From positions 52,659 to 104,826 of the forward strand of contig CAYVZI010000002.1 in NCBI GenBank assembly GCA_964456475.1: DNA of 52,168 nucleotides. The letters run 5' to 3'. Within the stretch, counting starts at the first letter, position 1. Every line of letters starts with the position of its first letter. The position numbers and the translations under genes are program-made. A model generated the notes under the pieces. It saw only the letters and a list, made by a program, of their open reading frames with translations. It was not told where the DNA came from and did not search any database. Shown piece after piece: positions 21,529-36,859 of the stretch. Source of the stretch: an uncultured Candidatus Saccharibacteria bacterium. GTDB taxonomy: Bacteria > Patescibacteriota > Minisyncoccia > Phycocordibacterales > UBA9973.

Positions 21529-21543
21529 TTCTCTCGTGTCACA

Positions 21544-21575
21544 CAAAAACAAACGCCCAATGGCGTTTGTTTTTG
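21544..21575 (+). terminator. Intrinsic terminator after clpP
   Basis: caaaaacaaacgcc-caat-ggcgtttgtttttg. Confidence 0.8.
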
Positions 21576-21596
21576 TATTGGGGTAAAATCGGAAGT

Positions 21597-23879
21597 ATGA
21601 ATGAGATGGAAAAAATGCTTCTCAGTGGCAATACAACACAAAAGAATATTAATGGAAGCCTTTTAGAAAAAGAAAGGGTAACTCCTATAGCTGAATCAAA
21701 AAACGAGTACAATGAACAAAAAGAACAGCTTCTTGCGTATCTTGAAAAAAAAGAGATTGTTGTATCAAAAAACCCGTACGTCCTAGATATCGACAAATTT
21801 AAAAATATAGTAAAATCCAGAATACAAATAAAGCAGAAATTTTTGAATCAGGATGAAATTATAAATGCCTTAGTTGGAGTAAAGTGCATATCAAAGGCAG
21901 ATATAGAATCCAACAAAACCGAAGATTCCACTTTAATTATAGAAAAACCCCTGCTTAATATACCCACAAATATTGAAGACGTCTTGAAGGGAAACATTGC
22001 TAATCCTGGCTATTTAAATCCTTGGGAGATACAAGAGAATACAAAATGGGATATACGCATTCCTCTTAGCGAAGGCAAAAATACAACCTTGGCGGAAATT
22101 TTTATCGCTCAAAAACTTAATGAACTTGGTGCACACAGAAACAATATGGGCGATTTGGAAATTATCGATCCAGCCAACAACAAACCAAAAAAGATTTCTG
22201 GATATCTTTTTCAAAAGTTAATCAAAGAACTCGGCGGAAAAGAACTGCGTATCCGAACAACACTACCCAATGAAAAAGAATACCAAACAGGCTTTGGATC
22301 AAGGGCTTTTTCTGAAAAAGTTTTACCCAATCTTTTTTCATCAGGAATTTTAAAAAACGAGGATTTTAAAACTATAGGCGGAAGTGCAGTCAGCGAATTA
22401 TACGCCATAAACGAACGGAAATTGGACCCCAAAAGTCCATACATAGGACTATCTGGTAAATATGGTTTTACACGATACTATCTCGGTAGAGACAAAATTG
22501 TCGGAACAAAAACTGAAACAAACGAGTTTATGAGCGTTATACAACTAGATCCAAATACCTTCGGCATTGTCGAAAAACTCCCTGGCAGAAATAGCCGACT
22601 CTTATACACATTCGACGGATTAAATGAGCAAGAAATAGCAAATCTACGAAGCAAGACTTCTGCTAATCTTTTATCAAAAAGTATCGAACCCACAGAAGCA
22701 AAGATTTCTGCATATTCCCTGACCGGTGGCGCAGAAATGAAAAAAAGAATCAGAGAATACAAAATCACAGAATTATTTCCTCAAAAAAAAGATGAGACTA
22801 GTGAAGTGTACGCCACACGACTATCTAATCTTAGTGATACGGATTATGTTTTAAATAATTTTAGAGAGTTTTTTAAGGACGCAAATATTGGGGTCCATAA
22901 CCTGTCTTGGATAGATCAACTTTCCATTGCTAATGCGATTTTGGAAGAAAAAAACAAAAAAAGGCTGGTTTCCTTCGCGTCAGATTATAAACTTGATGGA
23001 GTCAGAACATTTCTTTCCCTCGAACACGGTGGCAAAGAAATGAGTGACAAAATCCTTACGCTTGGTGAAAAATTACCGAGGCAAAACGCTGAATTGTTAT
23101 TCAAAAAATATGGTGAAATCATTGACGAGGTCAACAATGTGGCTGAATACTTTTCTGTATCACTCGCAAAAAATGCCACCCCAGAAATCATCGAACAAAC
23201 AAAGGAACAACTCCTCATTAAAGGCAAAGAAATGCTCGCCTACTATGCCGACCATGCAAAGACATGCGCCGAACAAGAGTGTGTTGATCTCGGCACTGAG
23301 CTCGAGACACGTCTAAAAGATTTAAAAGCATCAGTTGTATTACTTGGTTCTGCAGTCAAAACACTCGTCGAACGCGGTGAGTTCAATCTGCAAGATTTGA
23401 AAGATATCGAAATCTCATACGACGAGCATGGCTTGCAAGAAAAAGACAAAGCGGCAATCAGTGCAATGTCACACGAGAACACAAAACAGTATCCTGAAAA
23501 ACTTCGCGATTATTGGCGTGGTACCGCCGAGCAAGCACTCGAACATCCTGCTCCGGGCGAAACATTCATCAGTGTCAAATACCAAGGCGAAATCGTAGTT
23601 GTCATGCGTGTGATTCCACAAAACGACGGGTCTTTTTATGGTGCATCATTCAACGTCAATCCAAACATTCGTGGGTCACGCATCGGCACCGAACTCATGA
23701 AAGAGGTCATCGACAACTATACGAAACAAGGAGATTTTGTTGCAGATTGTTATGAGCACAATCCGATGCTCGAAAACTACACGGGCAAATTCGGTTTTGA
23801 AATAATCGACACCATCGAAAACTATCACGACACTGGTGCAACAATCAAAAAAATTATTCGTCGAAAGCAGGCGAACTAG
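21597..23879 (+). CDS. Large hypothetical protein with C-terminal GNAT-like acetyltransferase domain
   Basis: YGASFNVNPNIRGSRIGTELM acetyl-CoA binding motif A, then NPMLENYTGKFGFE motif B; N-terminal ~600 aa unassigned. Confidence 0.7.
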   Translation: MNEMEKMLLSGNTTQKNINGSLLEKERVTPIAESKNEYNEQKEQLLAYLEKKEIVVSKNPYVLDIDKFKNIVKSRIQIKQKFLNQDEIINALVGVKCISKADIESNKTEDSTLIIEKPLLNIPTNIEDVLKGNIANPGYLNPWEIQENTKWDIRIPLSEGKNTTLAEIFIAQKLNELGAHRNNMGDLEIIDPANNKPKKISGYLFQKLIKELGGKELRIRTTLPNEKEYQTGFGSRAFSEKVLPNLFSSGILKNEDFKTIGGSAVSELYAINERKLDPKSPYIGLSGKYGFTRYYLGRDKIVGTKTETNEFMSVIQLDPNTFGIVEKLPGRNSRLLYTFDGLNEQEIANLRSKTSANLLSKSIEPTEAKISAYSLTGGAEMKKRIREYKITELFPQKKDETSEVYATRLSNLSDTDYVLNNFREFFKDANIGVHNLSWIDQLSIANAILEEKNKKRLVSFASDYKLDGVRTFLSLEHGGKEMSDKILTLGEKLPRQNAELLFKKYGEIIDEVNNVAEYFSVSLAKNATPEIIEQTKEQLLIKGKEMLAYYADHAKTCAEQECVDLGTELETRLKDLKASVVLLGSAVKTLVERGEFNLQDLKDIEISYDEHGLQEKDKAAISAMSHENTKQYPEKLRDYWRGTAEQALEHPAPGETFISVKYQGEIVVVMRVIPQNDGSFYGASFNVNPNIRGSRIGTELMKEVIDNYTKQGDFVADCYEHNPMLENYTGKFGFEIIDTIENYHDTGATIKKIIRRKQAN

Positions 23880-24654
23880 ACTTTTTTTCTTCTCCAGCAA
23901 CCGGAGTAGAATTTTTCCAATATCCGTCAAAAATAATTTTCATAGTTTCTGCAATTTCTTTGTCTTCAATAATAAGACCCACAATTTTTTCTTTTGAAAA
24001 TGTAAGCATACTCGTCTTGTTATCGTACGTCAAAAGTGCGGTTGGAAATGATTTGACTCCAGAAGCTGTTCGAAACGAAGTGAGTTCAGTTCCCTTTTTT
24101 GCATACTCAGCATTGAAGTCATTATCGGAGACAATCATGCGTTTCTGTATTCCATTCGCAACTCTCTTCTTCAGATGTCGTACTGTCTCCTCAGGAAACT
24201 GGTTCATTGCAAGCTGCATGTCTGTAATCTGGCGAATTTCCTTGTCTACAGAAGGAAGATCCCCCGTTATTTTCAGTATGGCTTCTTCTCCTTCATAAAA
24301 CTGCACGTTTGGCTTACCGGCGATCAGATTGTATTTCGAAGCAAGCGATCCGAGTGAATGCTCGAGCATATCTTTGGCAAGGGCCAATTCTTTTTCCTTA
24401 CGTTCAATATTGCCCATAAGAAGGGACGGATGTCCGGCCACGAACACAGCCACGCTTCCCTCTCCACCCCGCTTCTCTACTAGACCGATAGCCTCAAGCT
24501 GTTCCAAGACCTTGTACGTAAGGCCTCTTTTGATGCCAGTCCAGTCGGCAAGTGCACTTGCTCTCTGTGGCCCCTTGTCCAATAGAGCCTCGTACGTAAG
24601 TGCCTGCTCTTCAGAGAGTCCAGCTTCTATAAGTAGATTGTTGCTGTTTTGCAT
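23854..24654 (-). CDS. TrmB-family HTH transcriptional regulator (copy 1)
   Basis: AGLSEEQALTYEALL..G..ASALA..TGIKRGLTYKVLEQL..IGLV wHTH; PNVQFYEG linker. Confidence 0.88.
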   Translation of the reverse strand: MQNSNNLLIEAGLSEEQALTYEALLDKGPQRASALADWTGIKRGLTYKVLEQLEAIGLVEKRGGEGSVAVFVAGHPSLLMGNIERKEKELALAKDMLEHSLGSLASKYNLIAGKPNVQFYEGEEAILKITGDLPSVDKEIRQITDMQLAMNQFPEETVRHLKKRVANGIQKRMIVSDNDFNAEYAKKGTELTSFRTASGVKSFPTALLTYDNKTSMLTFSKEKIVGLIIEDKEIAETMKIIFDGYWKNSTPVAGEEKKSSSPAFDE

Positions 24655-24676
24655 ATGAATATCGTATCATATTCGT

Positions 24677-24700
24677 CTTTGTCATACAAACATGACAAAG
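24677..24700. promoter_or_regulatory. Palindromic operator candidate upstream of TrmB copy 1
   Basis: ctttgtcat-N6-atgacaaag perfect 9-bp arms. Confidence 0.55.
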
Positions 24701-24767
24701 TGGATAACCTAATTATCCTTATTTATAAAGCTTTTTTAGCGATTTTAGATTAAATAATTATGTTATG

Positions 24768-24796
24768 TTGACAAATCATAATATAAATGCTATAGT
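24768..24796 (+). promoter_or_regulatory. Strong sigma70 promoter driving orphan array 1
   Basis: TTGACA-N17-TATAGT with extended -10 TG. Confidence 0.8.
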
Positions 24797-25390
24797 ATAA
24801 GCAAGAAAGTTCATTGATTAGGTGATTCGAGAAAAGTGCGGAGCAGTGAATGGTCAGGGGAGCCAAAAATCGCCATAACTAAGAACTGCTACGAGGAGAG
24901 CTTCTCTCGCATCATGTTTCCAAGATGGAGGCACAAGAATACAGGCTGGAAACCCATATTACTTCTGCCGTTACCCCATCACATCGGACACCAAACAGAT
25001 CCACCAAGGATTCGTTAGGACATCCAGTGAAAGAAAGAGACTAACCCCCTTTTGCTTTCACAAATGTCTTTGCGAAGGAGCTTCGTAACAAAGAGGAGAG
25101 AGAACTACTTTGAAACGAAGAGTATAGATGAAGGAGAGAGACCTGCACTATAGCAAAGAAGTGAACCTTAAAAACTAAACATGCCCGGAGACAATACTCG
25201 CGAAAGCGTATTATTTACTCCGGCAGATTCTGCACAAAACACAAACCTGTCATTCCGGAGTACACATCCGGAATCCATGCGTATTTTGTTGTGTGTAGAT
25301 ATGTTCCGTAAAGAAATTCGCGGAGTGCATAGTTGTTTTAGTTCTTTCAGAACGCCAGCATGGTTTTCTGAAAGAACTAAAACAAAAAAT

Positions 25391-25579
25391 ATGGAAAAAA
25401 TAATATTCGTAATACTGTTTCTAGTTATAGGGATAGTATTTACTATAGCCTCAATCATGGGGCTATACAAAATATGTAATAGGGTGCCCAGCAAGGCACC
25501 ACCATTCCCCGAAATATACGGGGAAACGAAAATTGGCCGAATTCTGGCCAATATAATATCCCTTGTTATTGGGATATAG
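25391..25579 (+). CDS. Small membrane protein, array 1 ORF1
   Basis: MEKIIFVILFLVIGIVFTIASIMGLYK..., ATG follows a 20-bp stem and A-rich tract. Confidence 0.6.
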   Translation: MEKIIFVILFLVIGIVFTIASIMGLYKICNRVPSKAPPFPEIYGETKIGRILANIISLVIGI

Positions 25580-25680
25580 GCGTTCATTGTTTGCTTTAAT
25601 ATTTAGCAGTATAGCAATGAACATTTGTCCCCGGATGACACAAACTGCCGGCGGTCTGATTTCTGCGAGAAGAAATCGAT

Positions 25681-25763
25681 GGGTAAAAAGGGTAAACATA
25701 TTCCCCGATTGGAAACAATCGGGGCCTTATTCAGCTCACGAAATTTTCGTTGGCTGATTGGGA
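25681..25763 (+). repeat. Intergenic module A (partial: hairpins 1 and 2)
   Basis: ccccgattg/caatcgggg then cttattcagctcacgaa..tcgttggctgattggga. Confidence 0.85.
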
Positions 25764-25859
25764 GGAAAGCCAAAATGTGCAAGCCTGTCGTGTACCGCGC
25801 CGACATAAAAAAAGCGGGATAGTAATACGTGTGCGAAGATCAGTACCACACTTACTCGA

Positions 25860-26690
25860 ATGGAAAGCAACTCGATATATTGCTTTTGCGGCGCCATGTC
25901 CAAGAAAAATACATGGCAACAATTCCGAGGCTCTCATATCGGGAGGTCAAACCAAACCCAGGCTCGGCTGGTGATTTTATTTATGACACAGTCATCAAAT
26001 ATTTTCGGAAAAAAAGTAGTTATTAGTAAAAAATCCCAAGAAATTGGGAGATATGTTAATTACAAAATTCAAATCGGGAGCGACGACCCGATTTTTGTTT
26101 CGAAGGATGCCGCCCGACAAGGACGGTGGTCCTTCGACACAAAAAGTTTTTTCAAAGGGGGTTCTTCCCCTTTGGACCAAGACGAATTGGAGATCATTCT
26201 CCAATTCGTAAAATTCTTAATCGTCTTCCAAGCGTATGAGTATACGCTTGGAACAAGGAGGAATTTCCTCCTGTCAGTAGAGACCACTGGGGTCGAAAAG
26301 GCCTCCGACGGTTACCATGACTTTGACTACCGAAAGGAAGTTAAGCTGGAGTCGGTAAACTCCAATTGGGGCAGCCGCTCCGCAATGAGTATCTACGCCC
26401 AATTCGACGGTCATGTGACCAACGAAGGAGGCAATCAATTGTTGGAGCGGTATTATTCGGCTCCAATACCTTTTATCAATATGACGCTTCAGGCAACTGA
26501 AGAGTCAATGATACGAAGGCTCGGTGAGCCAATCGGTCAAATGGAAATCTTTAACCCTCGGCCGAGGGAAAAGGAATACATTGAAAACTTCGGCACGGCC
26601 GAAGTAATTGATGGAAACAACCCGCTGGCAACGGCGTGGTTTGTTTTAAAAATTTTGCCAACATACTATATGTTGGCAAATATGAGGTAG
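25860..26690 (+). CDS. Hypothetical protein, array 1 ORF2 (start may be 25986)
   Basis: 276-aa open frame; family not recognised. Confidence 0.6.
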   Translation: MESNSIYCFCGAMSKKNTWQQFRGSHIGRSNQTQARLVILFMTQSSNIFGKKVVISKKSQEIGRYVNYKIQIGSDDPIFVSKDAARQGRWSFDTKSFFKGGSSPLDQDELEIILQFVKFLIVFQAYEYTLGTRRNFLLSVETTGVEKASDGYHDFDYRKEVKLESVNSNWGSRSAMSIYAQFDGHVTNEGGNQLLERYYSAPIPFINMTLQATEESMIRRLGEPIGQMEIFNPRPREKEYIENFGTAEVIDGNNPLATAWFVLKILPTYYMLANMR

Positions 26691-26846
26691 GGGTTTAGGG
26701 TTACAAAAAAAATGGCTCCGATTTTCTAATCGGAGCCCTTATTCAGTTCACGAAGCAATTCGTTGGCTGATAGGGATTCATACCTAGAATTTTGGTTCAC
26801 TTAGTTTTTCAATTTTGGAAAGTTAAGTGAACCAAAATTTAATAAA
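26691..26846 (+). repeat. Intergenic module B (hairpins 1, 2, 3)
   Basis: ggctccgatt/aatcggagcc; cttattcag..ctgatagg; aattttggttcactta/taagtgaaccaaaatt directly before ATG. Confidence 0.9.
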
Positions 26847-27071
26847 ATGTTGATCAGAAAAATCCACCTGTATAAGGTGGAACACCGCTACCACCATAGT
26901 GTAGCGGGATATTTAAATGGGCCGAGATCCTATTGGACAGCCCTGAAACCCGACCTCAGCCGGGTGTACGTAGTTGAGGAAAAAAACGACACCCTCGTAA
27001 GAGGGTGGGTTTGGTTTGTATTTGGGGCACTAGCCTCAGGCGCTGTTTGCTTTTTGACAGCAAACATCTAA
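26847..27071 (+). CDS. Small protein with C-terminal TM helix, array 1 ORF3
   Basis: 74 aa, ends WVWFVFGALASGAVCFLTANI. Confidence 0.6.
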   Translation: MLIRKIHLYKVEHRYHHSVAGYLNGPRSYWTALKPDLSRVYVVEEKNDTLVRGWVWFVFGALASGAVCFLTANI

Positions 27072-27162
27072 CCATCTGTCACCGAATGACATTAACTGCC
27101 GGCGCGTATTCTGAAATTGCGAGAAGTGAGTAAGAAAAGTACAAACTCAAAAATTTATTGTG

Positions 27163-27696
27163 ATGAACAAGAAAATTTTTAGTTTTGATGCCGAGACCAA
27201 CGGTCTTTGGGGCCGGGCGTTTTCGATTGCCGCTATCGTCTATGACGAGAACGGTGCGGAGACGATCCGCTTCATTGGCCGGTGTCCAATCGAAGGCGAA
27301 ACAAACAGCTGGGTAGCTGAAAATGTTTTGCCAAAGATGATGGACATCGCCGAGTCTCACGGCTCGTATGATGAACTGCTAAAAGCTTTTGCGGATTTTT
27401 ACAAATCCAACAAAGCCGATGCAGATATCATTGTGCATATGGGCGTGCCTGTGGAGTCAACACTTCTCAAGGATACTCATAGCCGTGGGTATATCGGCGA
27501 TTGGGACGGTCCGTTCCCCCTCATCGACATTGCAGGCAATCTGCAACAAGCCGGTGAGAATCCTACTTCAGTCGACGAATACGTCGCCAAGTATGGATTG
27601 GAGGTGCGCGATTTTGGCACGACACACAACCCGCTGTATGACAGCGAAGTTGCTGCAGTAGTGTATCGCCACCTTCAGGGACGGATTACTCAGTAA
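27163..27696 (+). CDS. DnaQ-like DEDDh 3'-5' exonuclease
   Basis: FSFDAETNG ExoI, PLIDI, THNPLYD ExoIII. Confidence 0.8.
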   Translation: MNKKIFSFDAETNGLWGRAFSIAAIVYDENGAETIRFIGRCPIEGETNSWVAENVLPKMMDIAESHGSYDELLKAFADFYKSNKADADIIVHMGVPVESTLLKDTHSRGYIGDWDGPFPLIDIAGNLQQAGENPTSVDEYVAKYGLEVRDFGTTHNPLYDSEVAAVVYRHLQGRITQ

Positions 27697-27762
27697 TCGG
27701 TCAGGCATTTGAGTGAGACTCCGAGCATGATACCAGCTTGGGAACAGAAGGTATCACAATAA

Positions 27763-27920
27763 GGGGTTACGGGTTATCGTATTTCCCCGATTGAGTAATC
27801 AATCGGGGCCTTATTCAGCCCACGAAATTTTCGTGGGCTGATAGGGATTGCTTACTTTCTGGTTGTTTTAGTTTTTTCAGAATGCCTAATTGGTTCTTTG
27901 AGAAAACTAAAACAACAAAA
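27763..27920 (+). repeat. Intergenic module C (hairpins 1, 2, 3)
   Basis: ccccgattg/caatcgggg; cttattcagcccacgaa/ttcgtgggctgatagg; gttgttttagtttt/aaaactaaaacaac before ATG. Confidence 0.9.
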
Positions 27921-28202
27921 ATGAAAGAAAGATCAATGAGCGAACTTGAATTCGCTCAGATAGTTTTTGAAAATGGGCTCTTTCTAGAGAGTCCATTAAA
28001 TTCAAAATCCTTTATGGCAGAAAATGCCACAGAGGAGAGCAAGGTGACTGAGAAACATGGGTGCTTCTCGTTTATGGGATCAATATACTTGATCTCATTC
28101 TCGGTTTCCTACGGGGAACCGAGTAAATCATGCAATCCCAGCAGTGGGTATTGCAAGGAGACAAAAATAATATCCGAGATTACCCGGATTATTTTACCCT
28201 AA
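27921..28202 (+). CDS. Hypothetical protein, array 1 ORF5
   Basis: 93-aa ORF starting MKERSMSELEF after module C. Confidence 0.55.
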   Translation: MKERSMSELEFAQIVFENGLFLESPLNSKSFMAENATEESKVTEKHGCFSFMGSIYLISFSVSYGEPSKSCNPSSGYCKETKIISEITRIILP

Positions 28203-28358
28203 GGGTTACTATGGTTTAAAAAACGGCCGAACAGAATATCGTTCGGCCTCTTATTCAGTCCGCGAAGCAATTCGTTGGCTGATAGGAATTCATACCTATA
28301 ATTTTAGTTCACTTAGTTTTTCAAGTTTGGAATATTAAGTGAACTAAAATTCAAAAAT
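28203..28358 (+). repeat. Intergenic module D (hairpins 1, 2, 3)
   Basis: ggccgaac/gttcggcc; cttattcag..ctgatagg; aattttagttcactta/taagtgaactaaaatt before ATG; closely similar to module B. Confidence 0.9.
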
Positions 28359-28544
28359 ATGAAAAACACAAAGCAACTTAAAAACGCGGCTTACAATGCT
28401 GCGTATGAAATTATTTCCTCAAGTTATTTTTTTGAGGGAACAAAAATTTTGGCTATGAAAGTAGCCAAAGATACAGGTTACAGGTATTGGTACAGCCAAT
28501 ACTTAAAAGCCTACTACGATTGCAGGCGAGAAAATGCCTCGTAG
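28359..28544 (+). CDS. Small Tyr-rich hypothetical protein, array 1 ORF6
   Basis: 61-aa ORF immediately after module D, followed by gggttgggtta and a terminator-like hairpin. Confidence 0.55.
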   Translation: MKNTKQLKNAAYNAAYEIISSSYFFEGTKILAMKVAKDTGYRYWYSQYLKAYYDCRRENAS

Positions 28545-28761
28545 GGTTGGGTTAATATATTTGAGGGGAAGTAGTTCCCCTCTCTTCACTCGCGCTTCTT
28601 CTGAAGCTGTGTGTCATTCCACAAAAGTTTCCTAAAGGAAACTTTTGTGGAACAAATCTCTCTCCTCGCACATAGTATCAATCTATATTCAAGGAGCGCG
28701 AATGAAGAGAAGTATAAAACAATAGAAAAAAAGCCGTTGCGATTCGCAACGGCTTTTTGTT

Positions 28762-29304
28762 TTATAAAAATATTTTTACGTGGTGCCAAATGGCAAAAGG
28801 ATTCATTGCGCAGTGCCAGAGCCAAACATCGACATTTTCGCCTGTATCATTTTTTGTCGTAAACAAACGAGCATGCATGGTGACCGACACATACTCATCA
28901 TGAAATGATGTATAGCCAATTATGTTCGGCAATCCATACCTTAGCAAATCTCCTTTCCCGTTTCCTGGTTGAGCCCTACCGAGGACACTTGCTCGCCAAA
29001 TAATTGATTCGTAGTTCGGAAAATGCGTTCCAAAATTCACAGCGCCCGTGTTCCAATCTTTTATTTGTCCACAAATCTCTTTGTCACTCATTACTTTTTC
29101 GTCATACAAGGTACCGTGCAGGTCTTCAGTTTCCATTATTTTGAACGGTGTGCGTTTGTCTACAAAACTTGCAAAGTCTTCACTGAGACTAAAAATGTGT
29201 GCTGGAAATAGCTTCTCGGCATTCCAAGGCTCAAAAACAGAAGGTATGTGGGTGATTTTTCCATTTTTCCCTGCGTTTATAACAACACTCGATTCATTGA
29301 TCAT
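28762..29304 (-). CDS. Hypothetical protein
   Basis: 180-aa ORF with protein-like composition; family not recognised. Confidence 0.6.
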   Translation of the reverse strand: MINESSVVINAGKNGKITHIPSVFEPWNAEKLFPAHIFSLSEDFASFVDKRTPFKIMETEDLHGTLYDEKVMSDKEICGQIKDWNTGAVNFGTHFPNYESIIWRASVLGRAQPGNGKGDLLRYGLPNIIGYTSFHDEYVSVTMHARLFTTKNDTGENVDVWLWHCAMNPFAIWHHVKIFL

Positions 29305-29555
29305 AAGCGGTCATTTTAGAAAGGTGAAATTTACTTATTTTTACTCCTCTTACAGACGGCTGTCAAACTTACCTCTTCTTTCTCGACATTATCAAGATAT
29401 TCTGGTATTCTGAAAATATCGAACTTTAATATATTAGTTTGCCCGTTCGTATAGAAAAAGCCTTGTTTGTCACTCAAACCATTATGAAATTCGGAACTTC
29501 CCTTTGTGCCTTCAATAGCAATCCTGTCATCTTGATTCGAATCAATCGAGCTTTT

Positions 29556-29680
29556 TAGAAATTTCAGAGACGAGTACAGTTCAAGGCGTAAGCGAGGCTT
29601 GCGACCAAGGTGTAGTAATCCTACTCCGCGGGAGCAAACGAGCGAAACAACGAAGAAATGTGCCGTATATGAAATTTCTA
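29556..29680 (+). repeat. 125-bp structured dispersed repeat, copy 2 (rny leader)
   Basis: Perfect 11-bp terminal arms tagaaatttca/tgaaatttcta; colinear with the other copies. Confidence 0.9.
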
Positions 29681-29707
29681 ATCTAAACGGCTGGCTGGTC
29701 GTTTACC

Positions 29708-31237
29708 ATGTCTACATTTACTATATTGCTGATTGCAGCAGGCGCCCTCGTAGCGGGTCTTTTTTGCGGATACTATCTCCGCAAGATCACCGCGCTTGGA
29801 CAGCGTCGCTCAATCGAAATCGACATCAAACAGATGTTGGTTGGTGCCAAAGAAGAAGCGGCTCGCATCACTGATGAAGCCAAGAAAAAAGCTGAGGAAA
29901 CCGAATCTGACCTTCGTATGATGGAACGTCAGAAGAACGAAGACTTCAAAAAGACGGAAGATCGCTTGATTAAAAAGGAAGAATTGCTCGATGCTCGTCA
30001 AACCGAAATCGACAAGGAAACCGAGCTCCAAAAGATGAAGATCGAGGAGATCAAGAAGATCAAAGAAAAGGGCGACGCCATGCTCGCAGAGCGTGTTGCC
30101 ACACTCGAAAAAGTAGCTGGTCTTTCACGTGAAGACGCAAAAAACGAACTCGTTCGCGAAATCGAACGCGAGTCTGAAGAAGACCTCATGATTCGCATGC
30201 AGAAGCTTGAGCAAAATTCTCAAGAACGCATGGATCGCCGTGCAAAGGATATCCTTGCAACCTCTATCCAGCGTCTCGCCTCTTCGACTGCAGCTGAGAT
30301 TATGACGACCAACGTCGCCATCCCATCTGACGACATCAAGGGCAAGATCATTGGAAAGGAAGGACGCAACATTCGCGCATTCGAACGCGCAGCCGGTGTT
30401 GAACTCATCGTCGATGAAACTCCTGGAGTCATCATCATTTCAGCCTTTGATCCTGTACGCCGACAAATCGCTCGCGTCGCTCTTGAGAATCTCATTCTCG
30501 ATGGACGCATTCAGCCAGCCAAAATCGAAGAAGTGGTAGAAAAAGCCAAGGAAGACATCAATAAGATCATCAAAGAAAAGGGTGAGCAGGCAGTGTACGA
30601 ATGTGGAATCTTCAATTTCGACCCACGCATCATCGCCATCTTGGGACGCCTCTACTTCCGCACATCATACGGACAAAACGTGCTTCAGCACTCAATCGAG
30701 ATGACACACATTGCCGGAATGATTGCCGAAGAGCTCGGTGCCGACGTTGCAATCGCCAAGCAAGGTGCACTCGTACACGACATCGGAAAAGCGCTCGACC
30801 ATGAAGTACAAGGTACGCACATCGATATCGGTATCCGCATCCTCCAGAAATTCGGTGCTGATCCTCGTGTGATTCAAGCAATGAAATCTCACCACGACGA
30901 CTGTCCACATGAAACAATCGAAGCCGTAATCGTGCAGACTGCCGACAATATTTCCGGCGGACGCCCAGGTGCACGACGCGACAGTGTTGAGAACTACCTC
31001 AAGCGCTTGCACGAAATGGAAGCACTCGTAAACGCTTTCCCAAATATCGACAAGTCATACGCGCTCTCTGCCGGCCGTGAAATCCGCATCTTCGTCACTC
31101 CAGAAAAAGTCACCGATGTCGAAGCAAAAGAAATGGCCCGTGAGATAGCGAAGAAAATGGAAACTGAACTCAAGTACCCAGGCGAAATCAAAGTGACGAT
31201 GATAAGAGAGACTCGAATCATCGAGTACGCCCGTTAG
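29708..31237 (+). CDS. rny: Ribonuclease Y
   Basis: N-terminal TM, coiled coil, KH domain (GKIIGKEGRNIR), HD domain (LVHDIGKA), YPGEIKVTMIRETR. Confidence 0.98.
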   Translation: MSTFTILLIAAGALVAGLFCGYYLRKITALGQRRSIEIDIKQMLVGAKEEAARITDEAKKKAEETESDLRMMERQKNEDFKKTEDRLIKKEELLDARQTEIDKETELQKMKIEEIKKIKEKGDAMLAERVATLEKVAGLSREDAKNELVREIERESEEDLMIRMQKLEQNSQERMDRRAKDILATSIQRLASSTAAEIMTTNVAIPSDDIKGKIIGKEGRNIRAFERAAGVELIVDETPGVIIISAFDPVRRQIARVALENLILDGRIQPAKIEEVVEKAKEDINKIIKEKGEQAVYECGIFNFDPRIIAILGRLYFRTSYGQNVLQHSIEMTHIAGMIAEELGADVAIAKQGALVHDIGKALDHEVQGTHIDIGIRILQKFGADPRVIQAMKSHHDDCPHETIEAVIVQTADNISGGRPGARRDSVENYLKRLHEMEALVNAFPNIDKSYALSAGREIRIFVTPEKVTDVEAKEMAREIAKKMETELKYPGEIKVTMIRETRIIEYAR

Positions 31238-31356
31238 TCTCTTCAGACATTACAAAAGACGCCCAATAGCATTAGGGGCGGCTTTTGTGATATTAAAAAA
31301 GCACACTCTTTATTTTAAGGTGTGCTTTTGTGAACAATTTTATGTTTCTCTTAATC

Positions 31357-31794
31357 TTATTTTCTATACAATGCTATCCTTGCTCCTTTACGAAATCCAT
31401 CTGGTGCTGAGATTCTTGTTATTTCAGAAGCTTTTCCGTCATTGTGGAATTTATAAAAACACATGCAACGAACGTCCATTCCGCGAAACCCCCTGCCATG
31501 ATCGCAATACAACAGACTTCCAATAAAATGGATGTACTCATCTGTATTTTTTGCATTAGCTGGAATTTCTTCTGGATGATTCATCAGGAAATCATAAACG
31601 GTTGCATTCAAAGGAATTTTTTCCTTTTGCATCTCTAAATATTTCACAAGATCATCCCAACTTGTATCCTCTTTGCATACATATAATTCAAAGTTTTGGG
31701 AATTCCACTCGATTACCCCATGTTTATCATGACTAAATAACATATCATTTGTGCGAAGATTCGGTACTTCATTGGTATTGATTATGTGTTTCAT
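31357..31794 (-). CDS. Hypothetical protein, array 2 ORF3
   Basis: 145 aa; PLNATVYDFLMNHPEEIP..IHFIGS resembles a recurrent uncharacterised CPR family (from memory, unverified). Confidence 0.7.
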   Translation of the reverse strand: MKHIINTNEVPNLRTNDMLFSHDKHGVIEWNSQNFELYVCKEDTSWDDLVKYLEMQKEKIPLNATVYDFLMNHPEEIPANAKNTDEYIHFIGSLLYCDHGRGFRGMDVRCMCFYKFHNDGKASEITRISAPDGFRKGARIALYRK

Positions 31795-31800
31795 ATATTT

Positions 31801-31855
31801 GTTTTAAAAGGTTACCCAAATTTCCCAGAGAGAATCTCGGGTAACCTTTTAAAAC
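31801..31855. repeat. Long palindrome directly upstream of ORF 31794 start
   Basis: gttttaaaaggttaccc/gggtaaccttttaaaac, 17-bp perfect arms. Confidence 0.8.
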
Positions 31856-31870
31856 TTTGGAAAAGAGCTT

Positions 31871-31920
31871 CTGTTTCGTCCTTTTGGACTCATCAGGCAA
31901 AGCAGTTCACTTTGCGACAG
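31871..31920 (-). ncRNA. Type III hammerhead ribozyme HHR-1
   Basis: Minus strand: CUGUC^GCAAAG-UGAACUG-CUUUGC-CUGAUGA-GUCC-AAAA-GGAC-GAAA-CAG; full core, three stems, GUC cleavage triplet. Confidence 0.93.
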
Positions 31921-32015
31921 TGCGGTAGAATTATCTCCACCGCTTTTATGTTAGGCACGTTTACGAAAGGCTGTGTCCATTTACCTTTTGCTCTGTCCCC
32001 AAGAGCCGGGCATCT

Positions 32016-32414
32016 TTAGGCTTCGACGGCCGTTTTCTGGAATTCAACTTTCTGCAAAAAATCTATCAGGTACTGATCGACAAAACCGGAAGCCCCGTTT
32101 TTGTTTATTGATCCGTCCCAGATGTCGTCTTTTGATTCTGACGTTGAATACAAAAATGTCTTTGCCGTGTCGTTGGCTAATTTCACCCGCAAGGTCAGCT
32201 GAGGGCCCTGCTCTTCCTGGGAAGTCCATGTTTTTCCGAGGACGACCAGGCAATTCTTCTGTCGTTGCGCTTTCAGCACAATTTCCTCGGAATTGCTGGA
32301 GATGAAAATTCTCTCGGCCACTTCCTGAGAAAAATGTGCCGCAACGGCTTGTTTGATCGTGCGGACATCGCTCGCCAAAGTCTGGCCGATAAAAATACAA
32401 GATATGTTCCTCAT
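32016..32414 (-). CDS. Hypothetical protein, possibly a degenerate receiver (CheY-like) fold, array 2 ORF2
   Basis: Start MRNISCIFIG at 32414 (the longer call runs through HHR-2); alternating beta/alpha pattern, GPQL..VK...TFLYS..DG.INK. Confidence 0.6.
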   Translation of the reverse strand: MRNISCIFIGQTLASDVRTIKQAVAAHFSQEVAERIFISSNSEEIVLKAQRQKNCLVVLGKTWTSQEEQGPQLTLRVKLANDTAKTFLYSTSESKDDIWDGSINKNGASGFVDQYLIDFLQKVEFQKTAVEA

Positions 32415-32438
32415 GCTATTAAATTTTTTGAAAGAATT

Positions 32439-32490
32439 ACTGTTTCGCTCTTTTGAGCTCATCAGGAGAAGCAATACACTTCTCGACAGT
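32439..32490 (-). ncRNA. Type III hammerhead ribozyme HHR-2
   Basis: Minus strand: ACUGUC^GAGAAG-UGUAUUG-CUUCUC-CUGAUGA-GCUC-AAAA-GAGC-GAAA-CAGU; compensatory stems relative to HHR-1. Confidence 0.94.
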
Positions 32491-32552
32491 GCCATGATTT
32501 TTTACATGGCCTTGATTTATAAAGCATTTTACGATTAGGCTGCTTCGTTTTC

Positions 32553-32849
32553 CTAGGTTTTGGGTACAACACAAAACATGTGGGCTATCGATCTAGGCTT
32601 GAAACCCGACATCTTCTGGCCGTCAGGCAAAAGCAGAGAAAGCTCCTTTACCTCTACCCATGTAGAACCTATAAATTCAGCGTCTTCAGGGATGTCAGTA
32701 TTTTCTTTTACATACCCTTTTATATGCTTAGCAACAGAACCACCCTCCTGGATGAAAATAACCTCTGATACTTCTCTCACTAGAGTATTTTCTCTCGGAT
32801 CGTTTTCTGTACGTTCGTATACTATGTAGTACCAGTTACCGACACTCAT
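32553..32849 (-). CDS. Hypothetical protein, array 2 ORF1
   Basis: Probable start MSVGNWYYIVYE at 32849. Confidence 0.6.
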   Translation of the reverse strand: MSVGNWYYIVYERTENDPRENTLVREVSEVIFIQEGGSVAKHIKGYVKENTDIPEDAEFIGSTWVEVKELSLLLPDGQKMSGFKPRSIAHMFCVVPKT

Positions 32850-32940
32850 GCTTTCGTTTTTTATGAATGAACAATTTATTTCGTATACATTATGCAATGG
32901 TTTTCCATTTCTGTCATATATGTCGTCATTTATTGAAATA

Positions 32941-32993
32941 TTGACAAAAATTCCATATTTTATATACTATTATTGTTGTCGAAATTTTCGACA
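32941..32993 (+). promoter_or_regulatory. Promoter and palindromic operator of TrmB copy 2
   Basis: TTGACA-N16-TATACT (32941-32968); tgtcgaaa-t-tttcgaca (32977-32993). Confidence 0.65.
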
Positions 32994-32999
32994 TAAAAT

Positions 33000-33743
33000 A
33001 TGAAAAACGAGAAACTATACGGAATATTGAAAGAAATAGGGCTAACCGACGATGAATCGGCTGTGTATTTGGCGAGCCTTTCGCTTGGAATTACGACTGT
33101 GCTCAAAATAGCCAAGGCTACAAACATCAAAAGAACGACAATCTATGGGATTATTGATTCGCTTAAAGAAAAAGGTCTTATGCGCATTGAGCTCAAAGGA
33201 TTAAAACAGCTCTATGCAGTCGAAAGCCCTGAGCGCTTGAATCTCATGCTCGAACGCAAAAAAGACGAGTTTGCAAAAAATCTGCCAGAATTCATGGCTC
33301 TCTATAAACTCGATGGGGGCGAAAGCGTCATCAAGTACTACACTGGCCTTCAGACAATGAAAGATATCTATCGTGACACACTCAAAGAAATAAAACCACA
33401 TCAAGACTATCTTGTAATCGCAAACGAAGAAAAATGGAGAAGCTTGGATCCGGGATTTGCTCTCTCGTATACAGAAGAACGAGCAAAACTACCGATAAAG
33501 ACTCGAATGCTCTTCCAAGACTCCCCTGTTGCACGTGAAGAAAAGAAATTTGAACGCAACTTCAACCACGAAATCAAAATCCTTCCGGAGAGCACCCCGC
33601 TCAACGTCGACACTCTCCTTCTCCCGAACAAACTCATCACATTTGAAATGACCCCGCCGTACATGACGGTAGTGATAGAAAACAAAAGCATCATTGAACT
33701 CCACCGCGAAATGTTCGAGATAATTTGGAAATCAATCAAGTAA
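33000..33743 (+). CDS. TrmB-family HTH transcriptional regulator (copy 2)
   Basis: IGLTDDESAVYLASL, IAKATNIKRTTIYGIIDSLKEKGL, SVIKYYTG. Confidence 0.88.
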   Translation: MKNEKLYGILKEIGLTDDESAVYLASLSLGITTVLKIAKATNIKRTTIYGIIDSLKEKGLMRIELKGLKQLYAVESPERLNLMLERKKDEFAKNLPEFMALYKLDGGESVIKYYTGLQTMKDIYRDTLKEIKPHQDYLVIANEEKWRSLDPGFALSYTEERAKLPIKTRMLFQDSPVAREEKKFERNFNHEIKILPESTPLNVDTLLLPNKLITFEMTPPYMTVVIENKSIIELHREMFEIIWKSIK

Positions 33744-36788: not shown

Positions 36789-36859
36789 TGCGGGGTAGGA
36801 GAGTCGAACTCCTCACCACAGTTTGGAAAACTGTTGTTTTACCGATAAACTAACCCCGC
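36789..36859 (-). tRNA. tRNA-Gly(TCC)
   Basis: gcgggg/ccccgc acceptor, acagt-tt-TCC-aa-actgt anticodon arm, ggag-ttcgact-ctcc T-arm. Confidence 0.95.

What the first reader, a model, noticed from the sequence alone, without database searches (positions are those of the whole stretch)
23854..33743. Two parallel TrmB-divergent islands with related TGTC...GACA operators
Seen: both structured-RNA-punctuated orphan arrays are transcribed divergently from a TrmB-family regulator (23854-24654 with array 1; 33000-33743 with array 2). Each regulator has a palindrome just upstream: ctttgtcat-N6-atgacaaag (24677-24700) and tgtcgaaa-t-tttcgaca (32977-32993), sharing TGTC/GACA ends, beside near-consensus sigma70 promoters. 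Inference: a repeated regulatory architecture in which a ligand-sensing TrmB gates an inducible polycistron of small unknown proteins that is then processed at RNA level. Possible roles are host interaction or anti-phage response.
Basis: partly seen in the sequence, partly recalled or inferred. Interest (0 to 1): 0.68.

Follow-up and report, generated by a model that had tools for sequence, protein, structure and literature searches.

The report
TrmB-like repressors beside ribozyme-punctuated gene arrays
Two distantly related copies of a small DNA-binding regulator, each with its own conserved palindromic binding site, sit at the edge of fast-changing strings of tiny unknown genes separated by self-cleaving and other RNA structures. 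One of the two is always partnered with a ~400-base structured RNA that matches no Rfam family.

Summary
ORFs 23854-24654(-) and 33000-33743(+) carry the TrmB winged-helix domain, and both palindromes and both strong promoters are exactly where stated.

Comparison with about 100 related Patescibacteria loci shows each palindrome is a footprint specific to one ortholog group:
- TGTC-N10-GACA occurs in 36 of 39 TrmB1 orthologs. It overlaps the -35 of a leaderless trmB1 promoter.
- TGTC-N9-GACA occurs in 46 of 55 TrmB2 orthologs, between the -10 and the ATG.

Its half-site is the -35 of the divergent promoter, so TrmB2 probably represses itself and its variable divergent cargo.

TrmB1's constant partners are a convergent 770-aa GNAT protein and a divergent ~400-nt covarying non-coding RNA with an invariant promoter and no Rfam match. 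The variable ORFs follow that RNA.

The arrays are punctuated by type III hammerheads with intact catalytic cores, a new two-hairpin "X" motif, 25-bp hairpins, and GGGUUA boxes complementary to the RNA's invariant loop.

"Ligand-sensing" is unsupported, because the fold is the short TrmBL2 type. An anti-phage role has no support.

Verdict: partly supported; a new variant of known kinds with new RNA parts.

The parts
21597..23879 (+). 770-aa protein with a C-terminal GNAT acetyltransferase domain. It is the convergent partner of TrmB1 and their 3' ends overlap.
   Evidence: Pfam Acetyltransf_1 at residues 636-744. A homolog lies convergent to TrmB1 in 26 related loci. Only the GNAT fold is recognisable in the structure model.
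23854..24654 (-). TrmB1: short TrmB-family winged-helix regulator, 266 aa.
   Evidence: PF01978 E 6.6e-11. 169 homologs in Patescibacteria.
24661..24689 (-). Predicted trmB1 promoter: -35 TTGTAT at 24684-24689, 17-nt spacer, -10 TACGAT at 24661-24666. The ATG lies 7 nt after the -10, so the mRNA would be leaderless.
   Evidence: The same geometry (TTGCAT-17-TATAAT/TATACT, ATG 6-8 nt later) holds in orthologs.
24677..24700 (.). TrmB1 operator O1. The palindrome core TGTC-N10-GACA is at 24680-24697 and overlaps the -35 of the trmB1 promoter.
   Evidence: Present with at most 1 mismatch in 36 of 39 orthologous loci, against a background of 0.30 per kb. Alignment A10.
24699..24707 (-). TTATCCACT, a motif matching the DnaA-box consensus (TTATCCACA), next to O1.
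   Evidence: TTATCCACA (at most 1 mismatch) lies 10 nt upstream of O1 in 27 of 39 orthologs.
24768..24796 (+). Promoter of the non-coding RNA and array 1: TTGACA-17-TGnTATAGT.
   Evidence: 11/12 match. Nearly invariant as TTGACA-N17-TGCTATACT across 23 loci. It lies 75-77 bp from O1 in nearly all orthologs.
24803..25200 (+). Conserved structured non-coding RNA of about 400 nt; the ends are approximate. Its best-supported hairpin is at 25017-25071, with an invariant loop UAACCC at 25042-25047.
   Evidence: nhmmer E down to 6e-37 in 36 TrmB1 loci and no hit in the TrmB2 loci. 20 of 30 pairs show compensatory changes; 93.9% of cells pair, against 79% when shuffled and 34-52% when slid. No Rfam match at E<=10.
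25333..28544 (+). Array 1.
- ORFs: a1 25391-25579, a2 25983-26690, a3 26847-27071, a4 27160-27696 (DEDDh-exonuclease-like), a5 27921-28202, a6 28359-28544.
- P1 hairpin plus X motif at 25703-25765, 26714-26778, 27785-27849 and 28225-28290.
- 25-bp hairpins at 25333-25385, 26788-26839, 27863-27916 and 28300-28351, ending 4-8 nt before start codons.
- GGGTTA boxes at 26698, 27764, 27771, 28203 and 28549.
   Evidence: Repeats. X model hits at 55-65 bits. a4 matches phrog_192 and recurs in 7 loci. a2 has only 5 representatives among 1.84 billion proteins. Boxes.
28728..28758 (.). Bidirectional intrinsic terminator that closes array 1.
   Evidence: 14-bp stem with T runs on both strands.
31357..32849 (-). 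Array 2.
- b1 32553-32849.
- Hammerhead HH1 32437-32492.
- b2 32016-32414.
- Hammerhead HH2 31868-31923.
- Hairpin 31801-31855.
- b3 31357-31794.
   Evidence: RF00008 at 41.9 and 38.7 bits, E 2e-6 and 1.5e-5. The core is intact and stems I and II show compensatory changes. The stretch 31801-32855 is absent from the related strain L002.
32889..32917 (-). Divergent promoter of array 2: -35 ATGACA at 32912-32917, 17-nt spacer, -10 CATAAT at 32889-32894.
   Evidence: 10/12 match. The same -35/17/-10 geometry holds in about 25-33 of 42 orthologous loci.
32912..32928 (.). Distal TrmB2 operator TGTCATATATGTCGTCA. It covers the -35 of the divergent promoter.
   Evidence: Present in 44 of 55 orthologs, always 65 bp from the proximal site.
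32941..32968 (+). trmB2 promoter: TTGACA-16-TATACT.
   Evidence: 11/12 match.
32977..32993 (.). Proximal TrmB2 operator TGTCGAAATTTTCGACA (TGTC-N9-GACA), between the -10 and the ATG.
   Evidence: Present in 46 of 55 orthologs, against a background of 0.35 per kb.
33000..33743 (+). TrmB2: short TrmB-family regulator, 247 aa.
   Evidence: PF01978 E 7.8e-12. 326 homologs. AF2 pLDDT 85, with best fold matches TrmBL2 5BOX/5BQT/5BPD at E 4e-14.

Best explanation
The window comes from a wastewater Patescibacteria (CPR) genome. It holds two paralogous regulators (24% identical) of the short, TrmBL2-like TrmB type. Each belongs to its own widely conserved ortholog group and has its own palindromic operator.

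**TrmB2 works like a TetR/tetA-type divergon.**
- Two TGTC-N9-GACA sites, 65 bp apart, bracket its own promoter.
- The proximal site covers roughly +2 to +19 of trmB2.
- The distal site provides the -35 of the divergent promoter.
- A bound dimer pair would therefore shut off both trmB2 and whatever cargo sits on the other side. Here the cargo is three small unknown ORFs separated by two self-cleaving hammerheads. In relatives it is often ABC transporters or enzymes.

**TrmB1 binds TGTC-N10-GACA on the -35 of its own leaderless promoter, so it autoregulates.** It belongs to a conserved module:
- a convergent 770-aa GNAT protein;
- a divergent, invariant strong promoter 76 bp away;
- a ~400-nt structured non-coding RNA made from that promoter;
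- a hypervariable run of small ORFs. These are separated by modules of GGGUUA boxes, a terminator-like hairpin, the X motif and a 25-bp hairpin.

**The transcripts are then probably cut or partly terminated at these RNA elements.**

**Shown:**
- the sequence features;
- their conservation;
- RNA covariation;
- the protein fold.

**Inferred:**
- DNA binding by these proteins;
- repression as the direction of control;
- ribozyme activity;
- any control of the RNA/array promoter by TrmB1;
- the effector signal, which is unknown.
For: **Family and fold**
-.

**Operator conservation**
- Upstream alignments.
- 46/55 proximal and 44/55 distal TrmB2 sites at a fixed 65 bp, against 0.35 per kb background.
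- 36/39 TrmB1 sites, against 0.30 per kb background.

**Evidence that the sites are read as DNA, not RNA**
- The half-sites are conserved, but the spacer is neither conserved nor self-complementary.
- The distal site and O1 lie at -35 positions, which are not transcribed.

**Divergent promoter**
- It is built on the distal operator in about 25-33 of 42 loci.

**Leaderless geometry of trmB1**
-.

**Module conservation**
- GNAT partner in 26 loci.
- Non-coding RNA in 36 loci, with covariation.

**RNA punctuation**
- Hammerhead cores and covariation.
- Hammerheads also occur in TrmB1-linked arrays.
- X motif: 47 hits. All non-window hits are on the array strand, and all but one lie upstream of the regulator. 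95.9% of cells pair, with many G-U pairs.
- GGGTTA boxes: 19 observed against about 1 expected upstream of X, and 0 in controls.

**Variability**
- The ClpP-RNase Y-TrmB2 gene order is conserved while the contents between them differ.
- A 1055-nt cassette block is absent in L002.
Against: - There is no binding, expression or cleavage data.
- Only two short low-depth contigs, from runs guessed to be RNA, touch the non-coding RNA. No RNA runs were found for array 2.
- TrmB1's operator is centred about 114 bp upstream of the RNA start site. No conserved second site lies at that promoter, so gating of array 1 is unproven.
- Both hammerheads score below Rfam's gathering threshold.
- The loci examined were chosen through the regulators. 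The enrichment of arrays therefore rests on an internal control: the upstream divergent side against the other flank.
- TrmBL2, the closest fold, binds DNA non-specifically as a chromatin protein in archaea. That is unlike the sequence-specific role proposed here.
Confidence: 0.65

Rival explanations
1. The regulators only autoregulate. The variable arrays simply accumulate next to them because these intergenic borders tolerate insertions. TrmB then has no role in array expression.
For: - TrmB1's operator is far (about -114) from the RNA/array promoter, which is a constitutive-looking consensus promoter.
- The gene content next to TrmB2 differs in almost every lineage.
Against: - The distal TrmB2 operator supplies the -35 of the divergent promoter in most orthologs, whatever the cargo.
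- The O1-to-promoter distance is fixed at 75-77 bp over 45-65% protein identity.
- The non-coding RNA was found only beside TrmB1 in about 1 Mb of related DNA.
Confidence: 0.22
2. The palindromes are RNA hairpins (5'-UTR structures or terminators), not protein-binding DNA sites.
For: - The window is rich in hairpins: 58 perfect palindromes against about 8 expected.
- The proximal TrmB2 site would be transcribed in the 5' UTR.
Against: - O1 and the distal TrmB2 site sit at -35 positions, outside the predicted transcripts.
- The 7-8-nt centre varies freely without keeping complementarity, while the outer TGTC/GACA stays fixed.
- The proximal stem would have a 1-nt loop.
- Some orthologs have an asymmetric left half, TGACG, which would break an RNA pair.
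Confidence: 0.04
3. The arrays are integron-like or otherwise mobile gene-cassette arrays. Their repeated structured elements (hairpins, X) would be DNA recombination sites, and the regulator and strong promoter play the part of the integron platform.
For: - The layout resembles an integron: a divergent gene, a strong outward promoter, then promoterless small ORFs separated by imperfect palindromes.
- A block of cassettes is present or absent between related strains.
- The TrmB1 module sits at different genome positions: between ClpP and RNase Y here, elsewhere in L037.
Against: - No recombinase was found among the island ORFs.
- The X motif keeps many G-U pairs, so it is strand-specific as expected for RNA.
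- No GTTRRRY/RYYYAAC cores are visible.
- The hammerheads are RNA devices.
- The indel ends share only an AAAAC microhomology.
Confidence: 0.06
4. The islands are prophage remnants or anti-phage defence islands.
For: - Multiple hammerheads flanking single genes of changing identity were first described in prophages (PMC3088659).
- a4 resembles a phage DNA polymerase exonuclease subunit (phrog_192, E 5e-6).
Against: - No PADLOC family matches any array protein.
- There are no other PHROG hits.
- Neither regulator has a relative in 2.9 million viral contigs.
- The flanks are core genes: ClpP, RNase Y, NusA.
- Both modules are conserved chromosomal features across the phylum.
Confidence: 0.05

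Closest known systems
Archaeal TrmBL2 (PDB 5BOX/5BQT/5BPD) and TrmB/TrmBL1 of Thermococcales
   Same: - N-terminal TrmB winged helix, a long dimerisation helix, then a PLD-like alpha/beta domain.
- The size (247-266 aa) and the full-length fold match TrmBL2 (E 4e-14).
- TrmB and TrmBL1 also bind palindromes near promoters and autoregulate (established knowledge).
   Different: - These proteins are bacterial (Patescibacteria).
- They lack the C-terminal sugar-binding subdomain of TrmB/TrmBL1.
- Their operators are TGTC-N9/10-GACA. The published sites, recalled from memory, are TATCAC-N5-GTGATA (TGM) and TACT-N3-AGTA.
- TrmBL2 is a non-specific chromatin protein, whereas these proteins have sharply conserved specific sites.
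TetR/tetA-type divergons (a repressor transcribed divergently from its target, with operators overlapping both promoters)
   Same: - Two operators lie in one short intergenic region.
- One operator sits on the regulator's own promoter region and the other on the -35 of the divergent promoter.
   Different: - The protein family is different.
- The two sites are 65 bp apart and bracket the regulator's promoter.
- The target gene is not fixed; it changes between lineages.
- The inducer is unknown.
Tandem hammerhead ribozymes flanking single genes in prophage polycistronic RNAs (Perreault et al. 2011, PMC3088659)
   Same: - Several hammerheads lie between small genes of changing identity on one transcript.
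- The catalytic core is canonical.
   Different: - The setting is a chromosomal island between core genes of a CPR bacterium, not a prophage.
- The hammerheads are tied to a conserved regulator/operator platform.
- They are mixed with other, non-hammerhead RNA modules: X, long hairpins and GGGUUA boxes.
RNase III processing hairpins between genes of phage T7 early mRNA
   Same: Stems of about 25 bp sit in intercistronic positions just before start codons. They are long enough for RNase III (established knowledge).
   Different: - No cleavage evidence exists here.
- The hairpins end 4-8 nt before the ATG in an organism without visible Shine-Dalgarno sequences, so they may serve translation or 5'-end formation instead.
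Integron platform with cassette array
   Same: A divergent gene, an outward strong promoter, then variable small ORFs separated by structured repeats, with cassettes present or absent between strains.
   Different: - No integrase and no attC core sites.
- The repeats behave as RNA, with G-U pairs and ribozymes.

Membership tests
TrmB family of transcription regulators (Pfam PF01978 HTH; archaeal TrmB/TrmBL1/TrmBL2) | N-terminal TrmB-type winged helix-turn-helix above the Pfam gathering score | tested here: met
   42.3 and 45.3 bits against a cut-off of 25.6.
TrmB family of transcription regulators (Pfam PF01978 HTH; archaeal TrmB/TrmBL1/TrmBL2) | Dimerisation helix followed by a PLD-like effector-domain N-subdomain | tested here: met
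   AF2 model of TrmB2 (pLDDT 85) aligns over its full length to TrmBL2 and TrmB: E 4e-14 and 2.5e-11. PLD3 and F13 also match. TrmB1 was not modelled.
Sugar-sensing TrmB/TrmBL1 (NCBIfam NF040851, NF047390) | C-terminal sugar-binding subdomain, a length of about 340 aa, and the equivalog score | tested here: not met
   - No TrmB_C hit.
- 19-39 bits against cut-offs of 600-650, matching only residues 1-114/166.
- Only 140 columns align to 2F5T.
- The proteins are 247-266 aa long.
Sugar-sensing TrmB/TrmBL1 (NCBIfam NF040851, NF047390) | Binding released by sugars | not testable with these tools
   Needs biochemistry.
Hammerhead ribozyme type III (Rfam RF00008) | Conserved core CUGAUGA ... GAAA, an A15.1-U16.1 pair and an NUH cleavage triplet | tested here: met
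   All 8 copies (2 in the window, 6 in relatives) keep the core, with a GUC or GUA cleavage triplet.
Hammerhead ribozyme type III (Rfam RF00008) | Stems I and II closed by loops and stem III open, supported by covariation | tested here: met
   Stem I varies GCAAAG/CUUUGC, GAGAAG/CUUCUC and GCGAAG/CUUCGC. Stem II varies GUCC/GGAC and GCUC/GAGC.
Hammerhead ribozyme type III (Rfam RF00008) | Score at or above Rfam's gathering threshold | tested here: not met
   41.9 and 38.7 bits against 48.5; E 2e-6 and 1.5e-5.
Hammerhead ribozyme type III (Rfam RF00008) | Self-cleavage | not testable with these tools
   Needs an in vitro transcription assay.
Integron | IntI tyrosine recombinase next to the array | tested here: not met
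   No recombinase domain in any island ORF.
Integron | attC sites with RYYYAAC/GTTRRRY cores that fold as DNA | tested here: not met
   The repeats lack these cores. The X motif has abundant G-U pairs on one strand.
Any Rfam 15 family (for the ~400-nt RNA and the X motif) | Covariance-model match | tested here: not met
   No match at E<=1 over 12.5 kb or at E<=10 over 561 nt.
Known anti-phage defence systems (PADLOC-DB 2.0) | Match of array or partner proteins to a defence family | tested here: not met
   Only the HTH of the two regulators weakly resembles CasR/Csa3. The array proteins have 0 hits.

The most novel reading that the evidence does not exclude
The TrmB1 module may be a previously undescribed, phylum-wide RNA-centred system. 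It comprises a GNAT-domain giant protein, a TrmBL2-like repressor and a new ~400-nt structured RNA. The invariant UAACCC loop of that RNA would pair with the GGGUUA boxes placed before every terminator-like hairpin/X junction of the cassette array it heads. In this reading the RNA acts on its own downstream transcript, or in trans, to license read-through or to guide processing of each cassette. That would resemble a tracrRNA-like or processive-antitermination logic applied to a hypervariable set of small genes. Hammerheads would be an interchangeable alternative form of punctuation.
Probability: 0.2. Interest if true: 0.85.

Novelty: new variant of a known kind. Interest (0 to 1): 0.62.

Why it matters
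- **Regulation in Patescibacteria.** Gene regulation in these bacteria is almost unstudied; full-text searches found no paper linking TrmB, or hammerheads in a relevant way, to this phylum. This locus yields two concrete, testable regulator-operator pairs that hold across dozens of lineages. It also yields promoter geometry, including leaderless starts, for organisms that seem to lack Shine-Dalgarno sequences.
- **Variable-gene hot spots.** Hot spots of strain-variable small genes are tied to fixed regulatory platforms and to RNA-level punctuation. This extends the prophage hammerhead picture to core chromosomes of ultra-small symbionts.
- **Candidate new RNAs.** The work exposes two candidates with good covariation: a ~400-nt RNA and the X motif. 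It also exposes a possible RNA-RNA recognition code. If these are real, they may explain how such bacteria express and diversify accessory proteins, possibly ones aimed at their hosts.

Tried and rejected
1. **X motif as terminator plus internal promoter.** TTGGCT-16-TATAAT was flagged. I rejected this reading because the -35 is not kept in diverged copies, whereas the helix covaries with G-U pairs.
2. **The ~400-nt RNA as RNase P, 6S, SRP or tmRNA.** There is no Rfam match even at E<=10 and no ARAGORN tmRNA. Superficial resemblances such as GAAAGUUC and GGUAAGCC did not give a consistent P4 pairing.
3. **A second TrmB1 operator on the -35 of the RNA promoter.** TRTCA-N8-TGACA is seen in some orthologs, but it is weak in the window and not general.
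4. **A divergent promoter using the left half of O1.** No conserved -10 follows it.
5. **Cross-regulation.** The N10 site occurs once in the window, at trmB1. The N9 site occurs at trmB2 and once more at 13104-13120 (not followed up), and neither type lies upstream of the other regulator.
6. **Phage or defence origin.** There are no viral relatives and no PADLOC hits.
7. **Function of the GNAT protein's N-terminal 600 aa.** Nothing came from Pfam, NCBIfam or PDB sequence searches. The AF2 model has pLDDT <50 for residues 1-300, and Foldseek finds only the GNAT domain.
8. **Expression evidence.** Only two ~150-nt contigs from runs guessed to be RNA lie inside the non-coding RNA. No RNA run holds array 2.
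9. **Literature.** Full-text searches found nothing on TrmB or hammerheads in Patescibacteria.

Full report
**1. What is in the window**

ORF 23854-24654(-), here TrmB1, is 266 aa. ORF 33000-33743(+), here TrmB2, is 247 aa. Both match the Pfam TrmB winged helix (PF01978) above its cut-off, in residues 10-75 only. They are 24% identical over their full length.

Both 11/12 sigma-70-like promoters exist. The one at 32941-32968 faces TrmB2 itself, not array 2.

The flanking genes are core genes: NusA, pyrophosphatase, trigger factor and ClpP on the left, and RNase Y (29708-31237) between the two arrays. The sequence comes from a wastewater metagenome. All relatives are Patescibacteria MAGs.

**2. 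Is it more than chance?**

Perfect palindromes (arm >=8, spacer <=8) are frequent here: 58, against 7.8 +/- 2.7 in shuffles. The bare pattern TGTC-N9-GACA occurs twice and TGTC-N10-GACA once, each against 0.9 expected. Inside this window alone the "shared ends" are therefore weak evidence. The case rests on comparison with other genomes.

**3. TrmB2**

*Distribution.* TrmB2 is a well-conserved protein: 326 homologs, many at 50-80% identity, nearly all about 247 aa. I fetched 61 genome loci.

*Proximal operator.* Upstream of the orthologs, the motif ATGTTGTCG-N7-CGACA lies 5-12 nt before the ATG. With at most one mismatch, TGTC-N9-GACA is present within 60 nt of the start in 46 of 55 loci. The background in the same loci is 0.35 per kb.

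*Distal operator.* A second site (TGTCA-N7-CGWCA) is present in 44 of 55 loci, always 65 bp upstream of the first. In the window it is TGTCATATATGTCGTCA at 32912-32928.

*Divergent promoter.*
- Read on the other strand, the outer half of the distal site (ATGACA or TTGACA) is followed by a 17-nt spacer and then CATAAT, TATAAT or TATACT.
- This holds in about 25 of 42 loci, or 33 of 42 with one more mismatch.
- In the window this gives -35 at 32912-32917 and -10 at 32889-32894, the same promoter the scan had flagged.
- The inferred start is near 32882, so b1 begins at the ATG at 32849.

*Layout.* The distal operator sits on the -35 of the divergent promoter. The trmB2 promoter lies between the two operators. 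The proximal operator covers about +2 to +19 of trmB2. This is the arrangement expected of a repressor that controls both itself and its divergent neighbour. That reading is inference from position.

**4. What lies divergent from TrmB2**

A minus-strand gene starts 115-280 nt upstream in almost every locus, but its family changes:
- periplasmic binding proteins;
- a NitT/TauT-like ABC operon;
- a class V aminotransferase;
- a DAO oxidoreductase;
- a 580-aa Cys-rich protein;
- small orphans.

The gene order trigger factor-ClpP-RNase Y-[0.7-4 kb variable]-TrmB2 is kept in several relatives. The space between RNase Y and TrmB2 is therefore a hot spot.

In the closest clade (L003, L004, L005, L007; 70-78% identity) the space holds small ORFs and hammerheads homologous to those of the window. 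The related strain L002 is 97% identical in protein and about 90% in DNA. It has only b3 there. The block b1-HH1-b2-HH2-hairpin (31801-32855, 1055 nt) is missing, with an AAAAC microhomology at both ends.

**5. The hammerheads**

Rfam gives 41.9 and 38.7 bits (gathering score 48.5; E 2e-6 and 1.5e-5) at 32437-32492(-) and 31868-31923(-).

The alignment of eight copies shows:
- the full core CUGAUGA...GAAA;
- a GUC or GUA cleavage triplet;
- a 4-bp stem III;
- compensatory changes in stems I and II.

I take them as genuine type III hammerheads; activity is untested. Cleavage would separate b1, b2 and b3. It would leave each downstream mRNA with a structured 5'-OH end. Multiple hammerheads flanking single genes of changing identity were described for prophage transcripts (PMC3088659).

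**6. TrmB1**

*Distribution.* TrmB1 is also conserved: 169 homologs at 45-76% identity. I fetched 50 metagenome loci.

*Operator and promoter.*
- The upstream regions share GTTATCCACA-TTGTCAT-ATTTGC-ATGACAA.
- TGTC-N10-GACA (at most 1 mismatch) is found in 36 of 39 loci, against 0.30 per kb background.
- TTGCAT, straddling the spacer and the right arm, is followed by 17 nt and then TATAAT or TATACT. The ATG comes 6-8 nt later.
- The operator therefore overlaps the -35 of a promoter that should make a leaderless mRNA.
- In the window these elements are TTGTAT (24684-24689), TACGAT (24661-24666) and the ATG at 24654.

This supports autoregulation; it is inferred from position.

**7. TrmB1's constant partners**

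*The GNAT protein.* A homolog of the 770-aa C-terminal-GNAT protein (21597-23879) lies convergent to TrmB1 in 26 loci. Its N-terminal 600 aa remain unassigned.

*The non-coding RNA.*
- The roughly 400 nt downstream of the strong divergent promoter (about 24803-25200) are conserved at the DNA level in 36 loci, with nhmmer E down to 6e-37. The regulator itself is only 45-65% identical in those loci.
- No hit occurs in about 600 kb of TrmB2 loci.
- The promoter is nearly invariant (TTGACA-N17-TGCTATACT).
- No ORF is conserved on that strand.
- On a sequence-only alignment, RNAalifold predicts 30 pairs, 20 of them with compensatory changes.
- 93.9% of cells pair, against 79.1% after shuffling and 34-52% with slid partners.
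- No Rfam family matches at E<=10.

This is a structured non-coding RNA with no Rfam match and, as far as I can tell, not previously described. Two short contigs from runs guessed to be RNA lie inside it. That is weak evidence of expression.

*Link to the operator.* O1 is 75-77 bp from the RNA promoter's -35 in nearly all orthologs, but it is centred about 114 bp upstream of the start. No general second operator exists at that promoter. Control of the RNA or array by TrmB1 is possible but not shown.

*Position in the genome.* Relatives such as L006, L016 and L050 have ClpP directly followed by RNase Y. The whole GNAT-TrmB1-RNA-array 1 block (about 8.2 kb) is therefore inserted here, and it sits elsewhere in L037.

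**8. Array 1 and its punctuation**

*Contents.* After the RNA come six small ORFs.
- a2 has only 5 representatives among 1.84 billion proteins.
- a4 is DEDDh-exonuclease-like and recurs in 7 loci.

*Junction modules.* Between ORFs lie repeated modules, in this order:
- tandem GGGTTA boxes;
- a GC-rich terminator-like hairpin (P1);
- the "X" motif, YCUUAUUCAG-[11-12-bp stem with a variable apex]-UUGAUAGGR;
- often a 25-bp hairpin ending 4-8 nt before the ATG.

*The X motif.*
- A covariance model of X finds 47 hits in about 1 Mb.
- All non-window hits are on the array strand, and all but one lie upstream of the regulator. Some of these hits are in TrmB2 loci.
- 95.9% of cells pair. 14 of 15 pairs show double changes, and there are many G-U pairs.
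- X is therefore a strand-specific RNA motif, not a promoter or a DNA site.

*Hammerheads in TrmB1-linked arrays.* A hammerhead model also hits TrmB1-linked arrays in seven loci, always on the array strand. The two kinds of array thus draw on a common stock of RNA punctuation.

**9. An unexplained link**

The best-supported hairpin of the ~400-nt RNA (25017-25071) has an invariant apical loop UAACCC (25042-25047).
- Its complement, GGGTTA, occurs 8 times on the + strand of the window. Five of these are in array 1, each just upstream of a P1 or terminal hairpin.
- In other TrmB1 loci, 15 of 27 X hits have at least one exact box within 100 nt upstream. That is 19 boxes against about 1 expected.
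- None of 32 control stretches has a box, and none of the X hits in TrmB2 loci does.

Pairing between the loop and the boxes is therefore a reasonable hypothesis. It cannot be tested by covariation, because both sides are invariant.

**10. The proteins**

The AF2 model of TrmB2 (pLDDT 85) is most like TrmBL2 over its full length (E 4e-14), then TrmB (3QPH). Only 140 columns align to the TrmB sugar-binding domain, and PLD-like folds also match. NCBIfam TrmB and TrmBL1 models match only the N-terminal 114-166 residues, far below their cut-offs.

The proteins are thus members of the TrmB family in the broad sense, with the short TrmBL2 architecture. They are not members of the sugar-sensing TrmB/TrmBL1 group. 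"Ligand-sensing" is not supported, although the PLD-like domain could still bind something.

**11. Are the two operators related?**

They share TGTC/GACA but differ in three ways:
- spacing (N10 versus N9);
- inner bases;
- position relative to the promoter.

Each type occurs only with its own ortholog group. Other paralogs in the fetched loci also show GTC...GAC-type palindromes with N9-N12. A family-wide half-site preference with subfamily-specific spacing is the most economical reading. No cross-site is present in the window.

**12. Function of the arrays**

- No array protein matches a defence family.
- Only a4 matches a phage family.
- Neither regulator has a relative in viral contigs.
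- Some products have predicted membrane segments (a1, a3), judged by eye from the translations.

A role in host interaction remains a guess.

**13. Verdict**

- Operator status and the repeated "regulator platform plus RNA-punctuated variable array" architecture hold.
It is open for TrmB1.
- Ligand sensing and an anti-phage role are unsupported.

The most novel content lies beside the finding: the GNAT-TrmB1-RNA module, the X motif and the loop-box complementarity.

Noticed in passing
window 24803-25200 (+): A conserved non-coding RNA of about 400 nt with covarying structure. It is made from an invariant consensus promoter, was found only beside TrmB1 orthologs, and has no Rfam match.
   Followed up: yes
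window 25725-25765, 26737-26778, 27809-27849, 28249-28290 (+); 43 more hits in L004-L111: A new two-part RNA motif, "X" (YCUUAUUCAG-stem-UUGAUAGGR), preceded by a GC hairpin. It has strong covariation with many G-U pairs and always lies on the array strand.
   Followed up: yes
window 26698, 27764, 27771, 28203, 28549 (+) and 25042-25047: Tandem GGGTTA boxes lie just upstream of the intercistronic hairpins of array 1 and of arrays in other TrmB1 loci. They are exactly complementary to the invariant UAACCC loop of the ~400-nt RNA and are absent from TrmB2-linked arrays.
   Followed up: partly
window 24699-24707 (-): A sequence matching the DnaA-box consensus (TTATCCACA; TTATCCACT here) is conserved 10 nt upstream of the TrmB1 operator in 27 of 39 orthologous loci. 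No dnaA or dnaN gene is nearby.
   Followed up: partly
window 24716-24730: A further conserved palindrome, CCTTAT-N-ATAAGG, lies between the TrmB1 operator and the RNA promoter in many orthologs. Its binding partner is unknown.
   Followed up: no
window 21597-23879 (+): A 770-aa protein with only a C-terminal GNAT domain recognisable. It is always convergent with TrmB1 and their 3' ends overlap. The N-terminal ~600 aa have no detectable relatives with known function.
   Followed up: partly
window 21529-29707: Relative to related genomes in which ClpP is directly followed by RNase Y (L006, L016, L050), the whole GNAT-TrmB1-RNA-array 1-ORF 28762-29304 block is an insertion of about 8.2 kb. No recombinase, tRNA or flanking repeats were seen.
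   Followed up: partly
window 31801-32855 versus L002 2093-2096: The block b1-HH1-b2-HH2-hairpin is absent from a related strain. The junctions share only AAAAC, and the 5' UTR is kept and fused to b3.
   Followed up: yes
window 25333-25385, 26788-26839, 27863-27916, 28300-28351 (+), 31801-31855 (-): Near-perfect 25-bp hairpins end 4-8 nt before the start codons of five small ORFs. No Shine-Dalgarno sequences are visible anywhere in the region, and trmB1 looks leaderless. The hairpins may be RNase III sites or aids to translation start.
   Followed up: no
window 25634-25680 and 27085-27130 (+): A further two-copy element (GATGACAYWAACTGCCGGCG...TGCGAGAAG) lies upstream of a2 and a4. It was not characterised and has no Rfam match.
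   Followed up: no
window 27160-27696 (+): a4 looks like a stand-alone DEDDh 3'-5' exonuclease (phrog_192, E 5e-6). It is the only array gene that recurs in several TrmB1-linked arrays.
   Followed up: partly
window 32850-32882 (-): The 5' UTR of the divergent transcript (CGAAAUAAAUUGUUCAUUCAUAAAAAAC) is conserved among the closest TrmB2 loci, even when the first ORF differs.
   Followed up: no
window 11901-11949 and 36747-36791: Two very long perfect palindromes (21-nt and 19-nt arms, 7-nt loops) lie elsewhere in the window, the second abutting tRNA-Gly. They are probably strong terminators but were not examined.
   Followed up: no
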